A stretch of DNA of 64,000 nt from Escherichia coli. GTDB lineage: Bacteria > Pseudomonadota > Gammaproteobacteria > Enterobacterales > Enterobacteriaceae. A program made the translations under genes and the position numbers. Shown piece after piece: positions 51,216-57,226 of this stretch (positions within the stretch are counted from its first letter, which is position 1; each line of letters begins with the position of its first letter). The DNA is taken from assembly GCF_003018255.1 (NCBI RefSeq), contig NZ_CP027440.1. One strand, 5' to 3'. Below the pieces are notes generated by a model that was given only the letters and a program-made list of their open reading frames with translations, ran no database searches and was not told where the DNA came from.

Positions 51216-53564
51216 ATGCTGAGTTTATACGAAAAGATAAAGATAAGGCTGATAATTTTATTTTTATTGGCAGCACTGTCATTTATTGGTCTTTTTTTCA
51301 TCATTAACTATCAACTGGTATCGGAACGCGCGGTAAAACGTGCCGATAGCCGCTTTGAACTTATTCAGAAAAACGTTGGCTATTTCTTTAAAGATATTGA
51401 ACGTTCGGCCCTGACATTAAAGGACTCACTATATTTATTAAAAAATACAGAGGAGATTCAACGCGCCGTAATTCTGAAAATGGAAATGATGCCATTTTTA
51501 GACTCGGTGGGACTGGTACTTGATGATAATAAATATTATCTCTTTTCGCGGAGGGCGAATGATAAAATCGTTGTTTATCATCAGGAACAAGTAAATGGAC
51601 CGCTTGTCGACGAGTCAGGGCGGGTTATTTTTGCCGATTTTAACCCATCGAAACGACCGTGGTCGATGGCTTCAGATGACTCTAACAACAGCTGGAATCC
51701 GGCATACAATTGCTTTGATCGTCCGGGTAAAAAATGTATCTCTTTTACGCTACGCATCAACGGCAAAGATCACGATTTGTTAGTGGTGGATAAAATTCAT
51801 GTCGATTTAAACTGGCGATATCTGAACGAGTATCTTGATCACATCAGCGCTAATGATGAAGTTCTATTTTTAAAGCAAGGTCATGAGATCATTGCCAAGA
51901 ATCAACTCGCGCGTGAAAAATTGATTATTTATAATAGCGAAGGTAATTATAATATTATTGATTCTGTCGATACGGAATATATTGAAAAAACATCAGCGGT
52001 GCCAAACAACGCATTATTCGAAATCTATTTTTATTATCCTGGTGGTAATTTATTGAACGCATCAGATAAACTTTTTTATCTGCCGTTTGCGTTCATTATT
52101 ATCGTATTGTTGGTGGTTTATTTAATGACCACTCGTGTGTTCCGTCGGCAATTTTCTGAAATGACCGAGCTGGTTAATACGCTGGCGTTTTTGCCCGACT
52201 CAACGGATCAGATCGAGGCTCTGAAAATTCGCGAAGGCGATGCGAAAGAGATTATCAGCATCAAAAATTCGATCGCGGAAATGAAAGATGCCGAAATTGA
52301 ACGGTCAAATAAATTGCTCTCACTGATCTCTTACGATCAGGAAAGCGGTTTTATTAAAAATATGGCGATTATTGAATCCAACAATAATCAGTATCTGGCT
52401 GTGGGGATCATCAAACTGTGTGGTCTGGAAGCTGTGGAAGCGGTGTTTGGTGTTGATGAACGCAATAAAATCGTCAGGAAATTGTGTCAGCGAATTGCCG
52501 AGAAATATGCGCAATGCTGCGATATCGTGACATTTAATGCCGATCTCTATTTACTCCTGTGCCGGGAAAATGTACAGACGTTTACCCGTAAGATAGCGAC
52601 GGTAAACGATTTTGACAGCAGTTTTGGCTACCGCAATCTGCGCATCCATAAGTCTGCTATTTGTGAACCTTTGCAGGGGGAAAACGCCTGGAGTTACGCA
52701 GAAAAGCTGAAACTGGCGATTTCCAGTATCCGCAACCATATGTTCTCAGAGTTTATTTTCTGTGATGATGCGAAACTCAACGAAATAGAAGAGAATATCT
52801 GGATTGCGCGTAATATTCGCCATGCAATGGAAATTGGCGAACTATTCCTCGTCTATCAACCGATCGTTGATATTAACACCCGCGCCATTCTGGGCGCGGA
52901 GGCGTTGTGCCGTTGGGTGTCTGCGGAGCGGGGGATCATTTCACCGCTGAAGTTCATTACCATTGCTGAAGATATCGGGTTTATCAATGAGCTGGGCTAT
53001 CAAATTATTAAAACCGCGATGGGTGAATTCAGACATTTTAGTCAGCGTGCGTCGCTGAAGGATGATTTCTTACTGCATATTAATGTTTCGCCCTGGCAGT
53101 TAAACGAACCACACTTTCATGAGCGTTTTACTACCATCATGAAAGAAAATGGCCTGAAGGCGAACAGCCTTTGTGTTGAGATCACTGAAACCGTGATTGA
53201 GCGAATTAATGAACATTTTTATCTCAATATTGAACAACTGCGTAAACAAGGGGTACGGATATCGATTGATGACTTTGGCACCGGTTTGTCAAACCTGAAA
53301 CGTTTTTATGAAATTAATCCAGACAGCATAAAGGTGGACTCGCAGTTTACCGGCAATATTTTTGGTACTGCGGGAAAAATTGTGCGCATTATTTTCGATC
53401 TGGCACGCTATAACCGGATCCCGGTGATTGCGGAAGGCGTAGAGAGCGAAGACGTTGCGCGCGAATTAATCAAATTAGGATGTGTTCAGGCTCAGGGGTA
53501 TCTGTACCAGAAACCCATGCCATTCTCCGCCTGGGATAAAAGTGGAAAATTAGTAAAAGAGTAG
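51216..53564 (+). CDS. pdeI: Membrane-anchored c-di-GMP phosphodiesterase (EAL domain)
   Basis: 782 aa; N-terminal TM/periplasmic region; EAL motif (GAEALCRW) in the C-terminal domain. Confidence 0.9.
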
Positions 53565-53571
53565 TTTACGT

Positions 53572-54900
53572 ATGTCCAGAATCAATAAGTTCGTACTTAC
53601 AGTCAGTCTGCTGATTTTTATCATGATTTCAGCAGTTGCCTGCGGGATCTACACTCAAATGGTAAAGGAACGGGTGTATAGCCTGAAACAGTCCGTTATT
53701 GATACTGCTTTTGCGGTGGCAAATATTGCTGAATATCGGCGTAGCGTGGCAATTGATCTTATCAACACGCTAAATCCCACGGAGGAACAGCTGTTGGTTG
53801 GCTTACGCACAGCTTACGCCGACTCGGTTTCACCCTCTTATTTGTACGATGTCGGTCCTTATCTGATTTCCAGTGACGAATGTATTCAGGTAAAGGAGTT
53901 CGAGAAAAATTATTGTGCAGATATTATGCAGGTTGTGAAGTATCGACATGTCAAAAATACAGGGTTTATCTCTTTTGATGGTAAAACCTTCGTCTATTAC
54001 CTCTATCCGGTAACTCACAATCGTAGTCTGATATTTTTGCTTGGTCTGGAACGTTTTTCTTTACTGTCAAAATCGCTGGCGATGGATAGCGAGAACCTGA
54101 TGTTCTCCCTGTTCAAGAACGGTAAATCGGTGACCGGTGATGAATATAACGCTAAAAACGCCATCTTCACTGTTTCGGAAGCGATGGAGCACTTCGCCTA
54201 TTTGCCGACCGGGTTGTACGTATTTGCTTATAAAAAAGACGTTTATTTTCAGGTATGTACATTGATTATTTTCTTTGCCGCATTGGTGGCAGTGATATCG
54301 GGTGCCAGTTGCCTCTATCTGGTACGCAGAGTGATTAATCGTGGTATTGTGGAGAAAGAAGCCATTATTAATAACCATTTTGAACGCGTACTGGATGGCG
54401 GGCTTTTCTTTTCGGCTGCCGATGTCAAAAAACTCTACAGTATGTATAACTCGGCATTCCTGGACGATCTGACCAAAGCGATGGGCAGAAAATCCTTTGA
54501 CGAAGATTTAAAAGCGCTGCCGGAAAAAGGCGGTTATTTGTGCCTGTTTGACGTCGATAAATTCAAAAACATTAACGACACCTTCGGTCATTTGCTGGGC
54601 GATGAAGTGTTGATGAAAGTGGTGAAAATCCTTAAATCACAGCTCCCCGTAGATAAAGGTAAAGTCTACCGCTTCGGCGGTGACGAATTTGCGGTGATTT
54701 ATACGGGTGGAACGCTGGAAGAGTTGCTATCGATTCTAAAAGAAATTGTTCATTTCCAGGTGGGAAGCATTAATTTAAGCACCAGTATCGGTGTAGCGCA
54801 TTCAAATGAATGTACTACCGTCGAACGCTTGAAAATGCTGGCGGATGAGCGACTGTATAAGAGTAAGAAAAACGGCAGGGCGCAGATTAGCTGGCAGTAG
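53572..54900 (+). CDS. dgcI: Membrane-anchored diguanylate cyclase (GGDEF domain)
   Basis: 442 aa; active-site motif RFGGDEF; 8 bp downstream of pdeI. Confidence 0.9.
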
Positions 54901-54914
54901 AATTAGAATAGTGT

Positions 54915-54940
54915 TAGTACCCCTTAATCAAGGGGTACTA
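54915..54940. terminator. Perfect inverted repeat just after the dgcI stop (left edge of TA islet)
   Basis: tagtacccctt-aatc-aaggggtacta: 11-bp stems, 4-nt loop; no strong U-tract on either side. Confidence 0.4.
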
Positions 54941-54969
54941 ATGAATGTGGTAAATCATTTGCAAACATT

Positions 54970-55299
54970 TTACTTTGCAAAAACTTCCGGCCCTTTTATT
55001 GCCAATGTATTCAAAATACGTAATGCCGGGCCGCTCGGTTTTATTTCATTACGTTCCCATTTCGAGACACTTTCTTTTGACATTCCCATTGTATGTGCCA
55101 GCACGGATTGTGACATGCCGTATCGGGTGCGGATGGCTTTGATCTCTTCACCCGTCATTGATTTGACTTTGGCTATACGGGCGCTGACTTCACGAGCTTT
55201 GACCATGACGGCAATGGCATCAACTTCACTATCAGACATCAGGCCCAGTGCATTCAGTTCCTTTGCATCTTCCAGCATCATTTGTAATTTATCGCTCAT
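54970..55299 (-). CDS. Type II antitoxin, XRE-family helix-turn-helix protein (HigA-like)
   Basis: 109 aa; HTH segment GMSQSVLAHTMGMSKESVSKWERNEIKPSGPALRIL; start overlaps the upstream toxin ORF by 11 bp. Confidence 0.75.
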   Translation of the reverse strand: MSDKLQMMLEDAKELNALGLMSDSEVDAIAVMVKAREVSARIAKVKSMTGEEIKAIRTRYGMSQSVLAHTMGMSKESVSKWERNEIKPSGPALRILNTLAIKGPEVFAK

Positions 55300-55675
55300 T
55301 TTTCACCTCAATCAAAAAGCCAGTTTCGATCAAATCCTCTATTTGCTTATTGCTAAAGGCCAGAAATGCATTTGCCATTTTTTTGTAGGCCGCCAGTTCA
55401 TCATCTTCGATTTCTTTGGTTCCTTTACTGCTTAGACCACTCTTGGACCAACCATCATAAAAAAACACATGATTTGCTGATTTAAAAAAGATAATTGTTC
55501 TGGCTCCACCACTCTTTCCTTGTTGGAGGGGTAAACGTTTTTTGATGACACCGCTACCTAAATCAGCCTCCCATATGCCCTGAATCACTTCTTCAGCGGC
55601 AGCCATGAGAACTTTATCGTGAATACCAAGTTTTTTCGTGCTTTGGCTGAATCGTCTTGCCTTATACACACCCAT
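55289..55675 (-). CDS. Type II toxin, RelE/HigB-like (probable mRNA interferase)
   Basis: 128 aa; family-typical segments LPLQQGKSGGARTIIFF and FFYDGWSKS; AAGGA ribosome-binding site ~7 bp upstream of the ATG; toxin-first operon order. Confidence 0.7.
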   Translation of the reverse strand: MGVYKARRFSQSTKKLGIHDKVLMAAAEEVIQGIWEADLGSGVIKKRLPLQQGKSGGARTIIFFKSANHVFFYDGWSKSGLSSKGTKEIEDDELAAYKKMANAFLAFSNKQIEDLIETGFLIEVKNER

Positions 55676-55685
55676 ACATCCATCC

Positions 55686-55720
55686 TTGTGGTAATGTTTA
55701 CTATAGTAACCATTACGCTT
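55686..55720 (-). promoter_or_regulatory. Putative promoter/operator of the toxin-antitoxin operon
   Basis: Imperfect palindrome ggtaatgtttactatagtaaccattac containing a -10-like hexamer (minus-strand tactat), 15-45 bp upstream of the toxin ATG. Confidence 0.4.
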
Positions 55721-55900
55721 ATTTCAAGTAATTGCGATCAAAACTTTAATTTGGTGTGAAAAAGTGAGAGTTGCCTCGAGTACGATTCATTTTTCTCGAT
55801 TTATGCGTCAGGGGATTTTGTGCGTAAGGGTAGGACATCGGGAAGGGTAGCAGAGGCAGATCGAAGAACAATATCCTTGTTAGATCTGCCTTAAGATTAA

Positions 55901-57226
55901 TTAAACCCGGCTACCCCACAAATCGTACTCATCGGCGTGCTCGACTTTCACACGCAGGATATCACCCGGCTTAACGTTGGTTTCACCATTGAGATAAACC
56001 GCGCCGTCGATTTCCGGTGCATCTGCCATGCTGCGACCAATCGCACCTTCTTCGTCCACTTCGTCGATAATCACCAGAATTTCACGGCCCACTTTCTCTT
56101 GCAGGCGCTCGGCGGAAATCTGCTGCTGCAACTGCATGAAACGGTTCCAGCGTTCTTCTTTCACTTCTTCCGGAACCTGGTCAGGCAGGGCATTGGCGTC
56201 TGCACCTTCAACCGGGCTGTATTTAAAGCAGCCAACGCGATCCAGACGTGCTTCTTTCAGGAAGTCGAGTAGCATCTGGAAATCTTCTTCCGTCTCGCCA
56301 GGGAAGCCGACAATAAAGGTTGAGCGTAGGGTCAGTTCCGGGCAGATTTCGCGCCACTGTTTGATGCGCGCGAGTTGGCGATCTACAGAACCCGGACGCT
56401 TCATCAGTTTGAGAATGCGCGGGCTGGCGTGCTGCAACGGAATGTCCAGATAGGGCAGGATTTTGCCTTCTGCCATCAGTGGGATGACGTCGTCCACATG
56501 CGGATAAGGGTAAACGTAGTGCAGACGTGTCCAGATCCCCAGTTTCGATAACTGTTCGCACAGGCTGACCATGCTGGTTTTTACCGGCTCGCCGTTGTGG
56601 AAGCCAGTACGATGTTTAACATCGACGCCATAGGCGGAAGTATCCTGCGAGATCACCAGAATCTCTTTAACGCCCGCATCAACCAGACGTTTCGCTTCAC
56701 TTAACACTTCGCCAATCGGACGGCTCACTAGGTCGCCGCGCATAGACGGAATAATGCAGAAGGTGCAGCGGTGATTACAGCCTTCAGAAATTTTCAGATA
56801 GGCATAATGACGCGGCGTCAGTTTCACACCTTGTTCTGGCACCAGGCTCAGGAATGGGTTGTGTTTCGGTTTTGGCACGTAGTGATGAACGTGCTCCAGA
56901 ACCTGCTCATAGCTATGAGGCCCGGTGATTTCCAGCACTTTCGGGTGGACTTCGCGGATCTGATCTTCTTTTGCCCCCAGACAACCGGTCACAATTACCT
57001 TGCCGTTTTCATTCAACGCTTCACCAATGGCTTCCAGTGATTCTTGTACCGCGCTGTCAATAAAGCCGCAGGTGTTGACGATCACCATGTCCGCATCGTC
57101 ATAGCTCGGTACCACGTCATAACCTTCAGTGCGTAGTTCGGTGAGAATACGCTCTGAATCGACAAGGTTTTTCGGGCAGCCAAGGGAAACAAAGCCGATT
57201 TTCGGCTGGGGAGTTACTTTGCTCAT
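55901..57226 (-). CDS. rimO: Ribosomal protein S12 methylthiotransferase (radical SAM MTTase)
   Basis: 441 aa; radical-SAM CxxxCxxC (CNHRCTFC); N-terminal MTTase domain and C-terminal TRAM region. Confidence 0.95.

What the first reader, a model, noticed from the sequence alone, without database searches (positions are those of the whole stretch)
54901..55900. Strain-specific toxin-antitoxin islet inserted between dgcI and rimO
dgcI (stop 54900) and rimO (stop 55901) are full length (442 and 441 aa) but separated by ~1 kb, whereas in the K-12 map as I recall it they are neighbours with only a short spacer. The extra DNA is visibly AT-rich and holds two overlapping minus-strand ORFs in toxin-first order. 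ORF 55289-55675 (128 aa) carries RelE/HigB-type segments (GKSGGARTIIFF, FFYDGWSKS). ORF 54970-55299 (109 aa) has an XRE-type HTH (GMSQSVLAHTMGMSKESVSKWERNEIKPSGPALRIL). The pairing, 11-bp overlap, small size and composition suggest a horizontally acquired addiction module. Both proteins belong to known families, so the novelty lies in the locus and context rather than in a new mechanism.
Basis: partly seen in the sequence, partly recalled or inferred. Interest (0 to 1): 0.7.

Follow-up and report, generated by a model that had tools for sequence, protein, structure and literature searches.

The report
Ordinary HigBA2-type toxin-antitoxin islet
The extra 1 kb between dgcI and rimO is a small, self-regulated toxin-antitoxin gene pair of a well-known family (HigB2/HigA2), carried by about a fifth of sequenced E. 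coli genomes and already labelled as such in reference annotations, so it is real but ordinary.

Summary
Window 54900-55895 (996 bp) takes the place of the short dgcI-rimO spacer that K-12 (46 bp) and E. fergusonii (40 bp) have.

- **Genes:** two overlapping minus-strand genes. The toxin (55289-55675, 128 aa) matches Pfam RelE PF06296, the HigB-2 family, at E 3e-32 over its full length. The antitoxin (54970-55299, 109 aa) has a C-terminal XRE-type HTH.
- **Closest solved relatives:** V. cholerae HigB2 and HigA2, for the toxin by fold and by profile, for the antitoxin by profile.
- **Active site:** three of four HigB2 active-site residues are invariant. The fourth, Tyr82, is Trp76 here.
- **Regulation:** a sigma-70-like promoter lies upstream. 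Its -10 sits inside a 26-bp palindrome whose 12-bp core is invariant in 11 genera. I read this as the operator for autorepression.
- **Pairing:** 76 of 79 related loci keep the toxin-first pair.
- **Distribution:** 1,138 of 5,426 complete E. coli genomes carry the islet, always at this site. Carriers include O157:H7 Sakai, where it is annotated "addiction module toxin RelE". Divergence inside the islet is core-like and mostly synonymous.

The label "strain-specific" is therefore overstated, and there is no new mechanism. No paper on this locus was found. Toxicity and the biological role remain untested. Interest is low.

The parts
54900..55895 (.). Islet-specific DNA (996 bp). It replaces 41 bp of the K-12-type dgcI-rimO spacer plus the third base of the dgcI stop codon.
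   Evidence: Comparison with the empty sites in strain CAR / K-12. Identity breaks at the dgcI stop codon (TAA in K-12, TAG here) and resumes at 55896 (attaa + rimO stop). Megablast finds the interval in 1,138/5,426 genomes.
55289..55675 (-). Toxin gene, HigB2-like (Pfam RelE PF06296), 128 aa.
   Evidence: Pfam PF06296, E 3.3e-32, model positions 1-120 of 120. AF2 model pLDDT 86. Foldseek top six PDB hits are all V. cholerae HigB2. Profile hit to HigB-2 at E 3.5e-4, with R47/R59/K78 aligned to Arg51/Arg64/Lys84. A Shine-Dalgarno AAGGA lies 8-12 nt upstream of the ATG.
54970..55299 (-). Antitoxin gene, HigA2-like, 109 aa. The N-terminal ~45 residues are the presumed toxin-neutralising segment; the C-terminal part is an XRE-type HTH.
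   Evidence: HTH_3 E 3.4e-9, plus weak MqsA C-terminal and NadS matches. The family profile's best PDB hit is VcHigA-2 at E 1.4e-13. It lies next to a toxin homolog in 76/79 loci. Its start overlaps the toxin's 3' end by 11 bp, with a GAGGTG Shine-Dalgarno.
55700..55727 (-). Sigma-70-like promoter of the toxin-antitoxin operon: -35 TTGAAA (55727-55722), 16-nt spacer, -10 TATAGT (55705-55700).
   Evidence: Consensus scan, 10 of 12 matches. The position is conserved upstream of toxin homologs in other genera. On its own, the scan does not find more sites than shuffled sequence gives.
55691..55716 (.). 26-bp palindrome GTAATGTTTACTA|TAGTAACCATTAC overlapping the -10 hexamer. Presumed operator for the HTH antitoxin.
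   Evidence: Inverted repeat I7, 12 of 13 complementary, no gap between arms. The core TTACTATAGTAA is invariant in 11 genera although the surrounding upstream DNA cannot be aligned. blastn hits it on both strands in the Kluyvera and Siccibacter loci.
54914..54941 (.). Perfect 12-bp-stem hairpin (TTAGTACCCCTT aatc AAGGGGTACTAA) between the convergent dgcI and antitoxin stop codons. Probable bidirectional terminator.
   Evidence: Inverted repeat I6, 100% complementary, 4-nt loop. It occupies the place of the K-12 spacer hairpin caggccgg...cccggcctg. Function is inferred.
55854..55891 (-). Hairpin (GGCAGATC...GATCTGCC) just downstream of the rimO stop. Possible rimO terminator.
   Evidence: Inverted repeat I2. 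It is the only stable element in the RNA fold of 55728-55900. It has no U-tract, so its function is uncertain.
55732..55853 (.). Non-coding islet DNA of unknown origin. Together with the hairpin above, it makes up the ~165 bp between the conserved promoter and rimO.
   Evidence: Not shared with the homologous modules of other genera. Found only as part of the islet. No Rfam match. Fold z-score -0.7.
53572..54900 (+). Left flank: dgcI (442 aa), intact. Its stop codon is TAG rather than the TAA of K-12.
55901..57226 (-). Right flank: rimO (441 aa), intact.

Best explanation
The interval holds a type II toxin-antitoxin operon of the HigBA2 kind, with toxin family Pfam RelE PF06296. It was acquired horizontally by some E. 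coli lineage and now sits as an accessory islet in place of the ancestral dgcI-rimO terminator spacer.

Proposed mechanism:
- One promoter (55727-55700, minus strand) transcribes toxin then antitoxin. The two genes are translationally coupled through an 11-bp overlap.
- The toxin is a RelE-fold, ribosome-dependent mRNA endonuclease that cleaves codons in the ribosomal A site and stops translation.
- The antitoxin binds the toxin through its N-terminal ~45 residues.
- The antitoxin's C-terminal HTH dimer binds the 26-bp palindrome that overlaps the -10 hexamer, which represses the operon.
- When the labile antitoxin is not replenished, free toxin arrests growth.

Shown here: family membership of both proteins, gene order, pairing across taxa, the conserved palindrome at the promoter, presence/absence among genomes, and purifying selection.

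Inferred by analogy with V. cholerae HigBA2: RNase activity, neutralisation by the N-terminal segment, operator binding, antitoxin lability, and any physiological role.
For: **Toxin**
- PF06296, E 3.3e-32, full length. PF06296 is the HigB-2 family (PMC11980606).
- The AF2 model (pLDDT 86) has V. cholerae HigB2 as its top six PDB fold matches, five of them at probability 1.00.
- The family profile hits HigB-2 chains at E 3.5e-4. R47, R59 and K78 align to the catalytic Arg51, Arg64 and Lys84 of PMC5416850. All three are invariant in 30 homologs.

**Antitoxin**
- HTH_3, E 3.4e-9.
- The family profile's best solved relative is VcHigA-2, E 1.4e-13.
- In a fused toxin-linker-antitoxin model, the N-terminal residues 2-41 are predicted as confident helices.

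**Pairing and regulation**
- 76 of 79 toxin-homolog loci from diverse bacteria have the antitoxin homolog immediately downstream, usually overlapping.
- The promoter TTGAAA-16-TATAGT carries the palindrome over its -10. The palindrome core is invariant in 11 genera.

**Accessory status**
- Present in 1,138 of 5,426 E. coli genomes.
- K-12 and E. fergusonii have short hairpin spacers instead.
- No other Escherichia species representative has a close homolog. The nearest are 73% (Enterobacteriaceae UBA5654) and 68% (Kluyvera).

**Selection**
- Between the window and O157, 8 of 10 coding differences are synonymous.
- The antitoxin protein is identical in the window, O157 SS52 and CE10.
Against: - No experiment exists, and I found no paper on this locus.
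- Identity to the characterised VcHigB2 is only ~14%, and single-sequence phmmer finds no PDB relative.
- The fourth HigB2 active-site residue, Tyr82, is Trp76 here. It is W, F or Y across the family, so the catalytic chemistry may differ.
- The antitoxin N-terminus does not align in sequence with that of VcHigA2. It is predicted as two helices rather than a helix plus a strand.
- No mobility signature (direct repeats, IS, integrase) explains how the islet arrived.
- The direction of the event within E. coli is not proven.
Confidence: 0.82

Rival explanations
1. The pair belonged to the ancestral E. coli chromosome and was lost from K-12 and most lineages. On this view the short spacer is the derived state in E. 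coli, and the event was a deletion or replacement rather than an insertion.
For: - Islet divergence between the window and O157 (13 of 996, 1.3%) lies within the range of the flanking core genes (dgcI 2.3%, rimO 0.8%).
- Carriers include distant lineages: O157:H7/O55:H7, CE10 and others.
- The K-12 and E. fergusonii spacers are not alignable with each other, so the short spacer is not demonstrably one conserved ancestral sequence.
Against: - E. fergusonii, which has the same gsiD-pdeI-dgcI-rimO-bssR synteny, has only a 40-bp hairpin spacer in four independent contigs.
- No other Escherichia species representative has a close homolog.
- About 79% of E. coli genomes are empty.
- Relatives of the module sit in unrelated contexts and on conjugative plasmids in other genera.
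- Either way the module was acquired horizontally at some point. Only the timing differs.
Confidence: 0.2
2. The module is a decayed or domesticated remnant. The toxin would no longer be toxic, and the HTH protein would act only as a transcriptional regulator.
For: - Tyr82 of HigB2 is replaced by Trp76.
- Truncated toxin variants exist in some strains: the 104-, 108-, 81- and 73-aa forms and strain BS-01, where the antitoxin gene is deleted but a 122-aa toxin remnant persists.
- Many chromosomal TA modules have no measurable phenotype (general knowledge).
Against: - In the window both ORFs are full length and match the models from end to end.
- R47, R59 and K78 are invariant.
- Substitutions between lineages are mainly synonymous in both genes.
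- Promoter, operator, Shine-Dalgarno sequences and the overlap are all intact.
- The Trp/Phe/Tyr aromatic at position 76 is a feature of the whole family, not a lesion of this copy.
Confidence: 0.12
3. The module's main role is anti-phage defence by abortive infection, rather than addiction or a stress response.
For: RelE/ParE-superfamily toxins, PF06296 members included, are discussed as defence toxins (PMC11980606). The antitoxin HTH weakly resembles HTH components of PADLOC systems.
Against: - The toxin matches no PADLOC model.
- The islet lies between housekeeping genes, not in a defence island.
- No relative was found in the phage collection.
- Nothing in the sequence distinguishes this role from others.
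Confidence: 0.08

Closest known systems
Vibrio cholerae HigB2-HigA2 (superintegron higBA-2; PDB 5JAA, 5JA8, 5J9I; Hadzi et al. 2017, PMC5416850)
   Same: - Same Pfam toxin family (PF06296) and same toxin-first gene order.
- RelE-like fold, with a Gly/Lys-rich beta2-beta3 loop followed by the catalytic Arg (GKSGGAR here, GKGKRGGSR in VcHigB2).
- Arg51, Arg64 and Lys84 equivalents are conserved.
- The antitoxin is about the same size (109 vs 104 aa) and has the same inverted layout, with the neutralising segment N-terminal and the HTH C-terminal.
- Both proteins' best solved relatives are this pair.
   Different: - Only ~14% toxin identity.
- The toxin is ~18 aa longer, with two C-terminal helices and a final strand in the model.
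- Tyr82 is replaced by Trp76.
- The antitoxin N-terminus is unalignable and is predicted as two helices rather than a helix plus a strand.
- The location is a single-module islet between core genes, not an integron cassette.
- No biochemical data exist.
E. coli K-12 RelBE and the other RelE/ParE-superfamily mRNA interferases (YafQ-DinJ, YoeB-YefM, HigBA/YgjNM)
   Same: BECR/RelE fold, a presumed ribosome-dependent mRNase, and autoregulated two-gene type II operons. YafQ is the next-best fold match after HigB2.
   Different: - Different Pfam families (K-12 RelE is in PF05016).
- RelBE, DinJ-YafQ and YefM-YoeB have the antitoxin first, with an RHH or Phd-type DNA-binding domain and a C-terminal neutralising segment.
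MqsRA (E. coli) and NadS-type HTH antitoxins
   Same: Toxin-first order. The C-terminal HTH of the antitoxin gives sub-threshold matches to the MqsA C-terminal domain and to NadS.
   Different: - There is no zinc-binding CxxC N-terminal domain.
- The scores are well below the NCBIfam cut-offs (47 vs 61.8 bits; 36.7 vs 60).
- The toxin is not an MqsR (PF15723).
Plasmid-borne PF06296 modules of Providencia, Moellerella and Xenorhabdus conjugative plasmids
   Same: Same two-gene module, ~68-71% DNA identity across parts of both genes, annotated as a RelE/ParE family toxin plus an HTH protein.
   Different: These are on plasmids and are a different lineage. The closest chromosomal relatives (UBA5654 at 73%, Kluyvera at 68% protein identity) are nearer.

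Membership tests
HigB2 / Pfam RelE (PF06296) toxins | Significant full-length match to the family profile | tested here: met
   PF06296, E 3.3e-32, score 111.7, query 1-124 against model 1-120 of 120. All 71 database homologs carry PF06296.
HigB2 / Pfam RelE (PF06296) toxins | RelE-type (BECR) fold resembling the solved HigB2 structure | tested here: met
   AF2 model pLDDT 86, pTM 0.83. Foldseek PDB ranks 1-6 are all VcHigB2 chains: ranks 1-5 at probability 1.00, rank 6 at 0.96, TM 0.45-0.64. YafQ comes next. This rests on a predicted structure, not a solved one.
HigB2 / Pfam RelE (PF06296) toxins | Active-site residues Arg51, Arg64, Tyr82 and Lys84 of VcHigB2 (PMC5416850) | tested here: inconclusive
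   The profile alignment maps R47, R59 and K78 to Arg51, Arg64 and Lys84, and all three are invariant in 30 homologs. Tyr82 maps to Trp76, which is W, F or Y across the family. Three of four residues are kept; the aromatic is retained but its hydroxyl is lost.
HigB2 / Pfam RelE (PF06296) toxins | Ribosome-dependent cleavage of mRNA and growth arrest on expression | not testable with these tools
   This needs expression and cleavage assays. No published data on this locus were found.
HigBA2-type type II TA operon | Toxin gene upstream of, and adjacent to or overlapping, a cognate antitoxin gene, with the pairing conserved across taxa | tested here: met
   11-bp overlap in the window. 76 of 79 homologous loci have the antitoxin homolog immediately downstream, typically overlapping by 4-32 nt.
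HigBA2-type type II TA operon | Antitoxin with a C-terminal HTH DNA-binding domain related to HigA2 | tested here: met
   HTH_3, E 3.4e-9. phmmer hit to 5jaa_A at E 5.7e-4 in the same register. The family profile's best PDB hit is HigA-2 at E 1.4e-13.
HigBA2-type type II TA operon | N-terminal antitoxin segment that binds and neutralises the toxin | tested here: inconclusive
   A ~45-residue N-terminal extension precedes the HTH. In the fused single-chain model it is predicted as two helices with pLDDT above 90. No coordinates or PAE were available to check contacts, there was no unfused control, and the segment has no sequence similarity to the VcHigA2 N-terminus.
HigBA2-type type II TA operon | Autoregulation through an operator at the promoter | tested here: inconclusive
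   A 26-bp palindrome overlaps the -10 hexamer. Its core is invariant across 11 genera while the flanking DNA diverges. Binding and repression were not tested.
Horizontally acquired genomic islet | Variable presence at a fixed site among conspecific genomes and absence from the outgroup | tested here: met
   1,138 of 5,426 E. coli genomes carry it. K-12 and about 79% of genomes have the 46-bp spacer. E. fergusonii has a 40-bp spacer. No close homolog exists in other Escherichia species representatives.
Horizontally acquired genomic islet | Mobility signatures (flanking direct repeats, IS, integrase, tRNA target) | tested here: not met
   There are no terminal direct or inverted repeats at 54900 and 55895, no transposase or integrase ORF and no phage match. 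Entry by recombination is inferred, not shown.
MqsRA | MqsR toxin (PF15723) and MqsA with an N-terminal zinc-finger domain | tested here: not met
   The toxin matches PF06296 only. The antitoxin matches only the C-terminal HTH part of MqsA (profile positions 51-122), below the curated cut-off, and it has no CxxC motifs.

The most novel reading that the evidence does not exclude
The Enterobacterales branch of PF06296 toxins, which carries Trp (or Phe) where VcHigB2 has the catalytically important Tyr82 and has a longer C-terminal region, could cleave RNA with a different chemistry or specificity, or have a target other than A-site mRNA. The islet could also have a locus-specific effect, for instance through its own convergent promoter and new terminators between dgcI and rimO, or as an abortive-infection defence. 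None of this is indicated by the data. It is only not excluded.
Probability: 0.08. Interest if true: 0.35.

Novelty: already known. Interest (0 to 1): 0.12.

Why it matters
It matters little beyond bookkeeping. The result adds one more accessory type II toxin-antitoxin module to the E. coli pan-genome. It gives exact islet boundaries and a well-supported promoter/operator. It also shows that the pair belongs with V. cholerae HigBA2 rather than with the K-12 RelBE or HigBA modules.

Possible uses are as a lineage marker (it is present in O157:H7 and O55:H7, among others) and as a convenient E. coli-native HigBA2 homolog for experiments. It opens no long-standing question and shows no new mechanism.

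Tried and rejected
- **Rfam scan of 54700-56100 at E<=1:** no match. The RNA fold of the unassigned 55728-55900 segment is no better than shuffles, z = -0.7, so there is no evidence for an sRNA.
- **Phage collection, distant blastn:** no match, so this is not a prophage remnant.
- **Plasmid collection:** the only near-identical hits are chromosomes or chromosome fragments filed as plasmids. True plasmid relatives are only ~70% identical and occur in other genera. A recent plasmid origin in E. coli is not supported.
- **PADLOC:** no model hits the toxin. **NCBIfam:** no model hits the toxin, and the antitoxin hits are all below the curated cut-offs.
- **Single-sequence phmmer of the toxin against PDB:** nothing. 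A profile and a fold search were needed.
- **Terminal direct or inverted repeats and IS elements at the islet ends:** none.
- **A separate origin for the 171 bp next to rimO:** the segment occurs only inside the islet.
- **Literature searches** by accession numbers, old and new Sakai/EDL933/042 locus tags, and yliF/yliG plus toxin-antitoxin: nothing on this locus.
- **Mosaic flank haplotypes:** considered as a way to date or trace the acquisition, but too few genomes were compared to conclude anything.
- **Phylogroup-resolved distribution:** could not be computed with the available tools.
Full report

Yes. The ORF listing gives dgcI at 53572-54900 (+, 442 aa) and rimO at 55901-57226 (-, 441 aa). 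The 1000 bases between them hold two minus-strand ORFs, 55289-55675 (128 aa) and 54970-55299 (109 aa).

K-12 MG1655 has dgcI and rimO 46 bp apart. The islet has 41.5% GC against 51.3% for the whole window. However, pdeI (41.4%) and dgcI (43.3%) are equally AT-rich, so composition separates the islet only from rimO.

**2. What are the two proteins?**

*Toxin.* The 128-aa protein matches Pfam RelE PF06296 from end to end (E 3.3e-32). A 2025 survey of the RelE/ParE superfamily states that PF06296 is the family of V. cholerae HigB-2: ribosome-dependent mRNases with toxin-then-antitoxin gene order (PMC11980606).

Single-sequence phmmer finds no solved relative. Two other approaches do:
- A profile of 30 homologs (A1) hits HigB-2 chains at E 3.5e-4.
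- An AlphaFold2 model (pLDDT 86, pTM 0.83) has VcHigB2 chains as its six best Foldseek PDB matches. Ranks 1-5 have probability 1.00, and YafQ comes next.

In the profile alignment, the residues shown by mutagenesis to matter in VcHigB2 (Arg51, Arg64, Tyr82, Lys84; PMC5416850) map to R47, R59, W76 and K78. R47, R59 and K78 are invariant in the 30 homologs. Position 76 is Trp here and Phe or Tyr in more distant members. So three of four residues are conserved, and the fourth keeps an aromatic ring but not the Tyr hydroxyl.

*Antitoxin.* The 109-aa protein has an XRE-type HTH at residues ~48-100 (HTH_3, E 3.4e-9). It gives sub-threshold matches to the MqsA C-terminal domain and to NadS. Its family profile (A2) has VcHigA-2 as its best solved relative (E 1.4e-13), ahead of P22 C2 and MqsA. 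The layout is the same as in VcHigA2, with an N-terminal extension of about 45 residues followed by the HTH.

In a fused toxin-linker-antitoxin AlphaFold model, that extension forms two confident helices. I could not inspect contacts, so neutralisation through this segment remains an inference from VcHigA2.

**3. Is it a conserved module?**

Yes. A scan of one genome per bacterial species returned the best 80 of 110 loci encoding toxin relatives. In 76 of the 79 non-E. coli loci, an antitoxin homolog lies immediately downstream on the same strand, usually overlapping.

DNA similarity between the islet and the nearest foreign modules (Enterobacteriaceae UBA5654, Kluyvera sichuanensis, Siccibacter colletis) starts ~56 bp upstream of the toxin start and ends exactly at the antitoxin stop, which is window 55731 to 54969. 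That upstream stretch holds two features:
- A sigma-70-like promoter, TTGAAA-16-TATAGT, at 55727-55700 on the minus strand.
- A 26-bp palindrome over its -10 hexamer, GTAATGTTTACTA|TAGTAACCATTAC, at 55691-55716.

In an alignment of 11 genera, the palindrome core TTACTATAGTAA is invariant while everything further upstream is unalignable. This is the expected signature of an operator for an HTH dimer that represses its own promoter. Binding itself is untested. Shine-Dalgarno motifs precede both starts.

**4. Boundaries and origin of the islet**

Against the empty site, identity breaks at the third base of the dgcI stop codon (TAA in K-12, TAG here). It resumes 5 bases before the rimO stop. Window 54900-55895 (996 bp) therefore replaces 41 bp of the K-12 spacer, including its hairpin.

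The islet brings its own perfect 12-bp-stem hairpin between dgcI and the antitoxin gene (54914-54941) and another hairpin after rimO (55854-55891). It has no terminal repeats, IS element or integrase. It matches no phage record and no Rfam family. About 165 bp next to rimO (55732-55895) have no counterpart outside the islet and no notable fold. Their origin is unexplained.

**5. Distribution**

Megablast of the islet finds it in 1,138 of 5,426 complete E. coli genomes, essentially always as one chromosomal copy between dgcI and rimO. The three plasmid hits are chromosomes or chromosome fragments that were misfiled.

Identity to the window falls into two groups. In 700 genomes it is at least 99%. 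In 436 genomes it is 95-99%, and the O157:H7/O55:H7-type copy at 98.7% belongs to this group. The 21% figure is thus partly a sampling effect of heavily sequenced lineages.

Carriers include O157:H7 Sakai, SS52, O55:H7 and O7:K1 CE10. From my own knowledge these belong to different phylogroups (E and F). The protein accession CBG33750.1 is, as far as I recall, from strain 042 (phylogroup D).

The outgroup E. fergusonii has the same gsiD-pdeI-dgcI-rimO-bssR synteny but only a 40-bp hairpin spacer. No other Escherichia species representative has a close toxin homolog. The one 99% hit there is an E. coli contaminant contig in a Collinsella MAG. This favours acquisition within E. coli.

Between the window and O157, the islet differs at 13 of 996 positions. 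That is comparable to the flanking genes (14 of 599 in dgcI, 5 of 600 in rimO). Of 10 coding differences, 8 are synonymous. The antitoxin protein is identical in the window, O157 SS52 and CE10. The islet is therefore old in the species, or has been passed around by homologous recombination, and both genes are under purifying selection. Whether some empty lineages lost it secondarily cannot be decided here.

**6. How it most likely works**

It works as a HigBA2-type type II TA. The toxin is a ribosome-dependent mRNase. The antitoxin neutralises it through its N-terminal segment and represses the operon through the palindrome. If the antitoxin is depleted, the toxin is freed.

The family assignments, architecture, operator conservation and population data are shown here. 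The biochemical activities are inferred from V. cholerae HigBA2 (PMC5416850). The physiological role (addiction or stabilisation, stress response, phage defence) is unknown. PADLOC gives no support for a recognised defence system.

**7. Novelty**

This is a member of a known family. PGAP already annotates the pair as "type II toxin-antitoxin system RelE/ParE family toxin" plus an HTH protein in over a thousand genomes. The Sakai reference genome annotates ECs_5400 as "addiction module toxin RelE" and ECs_5399 as "transcriptional regulator".

I found no paper that studies this locus. What is missing is experimental characterisation, not recognition. I rate it already known, with low interest.

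Noticed in passing
L003 (JAIJJM010000872.1, 1-1198): A 1.2-kb contig in a 'Collinsella sp.' MAG is 99% identical to the E. coli islet plus the 3' end of dgcI. It is almost certainly an E. coli contaminant binned into the MAG.
   Followed up: partly
PLSDB records NZ_CP134663.1, NZ_CP141089.1, CP088669.1 (hits H31-H33): Records of 4.9 Mb, 4.9 Mb and 730 kb in the plasmid collection carry the dgcI-rimO islet. They are chromosomes or chromosome fragments filed as plasmids.
   Followed up: no
L086 (E. coli BS-01, NZ_CP172816.1 852011-855677): A degenerate form of the islet. The antitoxin gene is deleted and a 122-aa toxin-derived ORF remains next to dgcI. The same strain has an internal stop in pdeI.
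   Followed up: partly
window 55732-55895: About 165 bp of islet DNA between the conserved TA promoter and rimO have no homolog outside the islet. The stretch contains an imperfect 17-nt tandem repeat (55800-55833) and a 41-codon TTG ORF (55746-55871, minus strand). There is no Rfam hit and no unusual fold. Its origin and function are unexplained.
   Followed up: partly
window 51216-54900 (pdeI, dgcI): pdeI (41.4% GC) and dgcI (43.3% GC) are as AT-rich as the islet, while the window averages 51.3%. The closest DgcI outside E. coli and Shigella is E. fergusonii at 78% identity, followed by proteins at only ~40% identity. The pdeI-dgcI pair itself looks like a compositionally atypical, Escherichia-restricted block.
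   Followed up: no
window 51216-53564 vs L001 1-2165: pdeI is an intact 782-aa ORF in the window. In strain JNE23-011 it is annotated as frameshifted, although that strain is 100% identical to the window over 54400-56400.
   Followed up: no
hit H23 (E. coli strain 410, NZ_CM132960.1): An IS1 insertion splits dgcI in a genome with the empty dgcI-rimO spacer.
   Followed up: no
window 55289-55675: No NCBIfam model matches the toxin at E<=0.01, even though PGAP names it a RelE/ParE family toxin. The name must come from another evidence type. The toxin protein differs between lineages (I31M, T86S), whereas the antitoxin protein is identical.
   Followed up: partly
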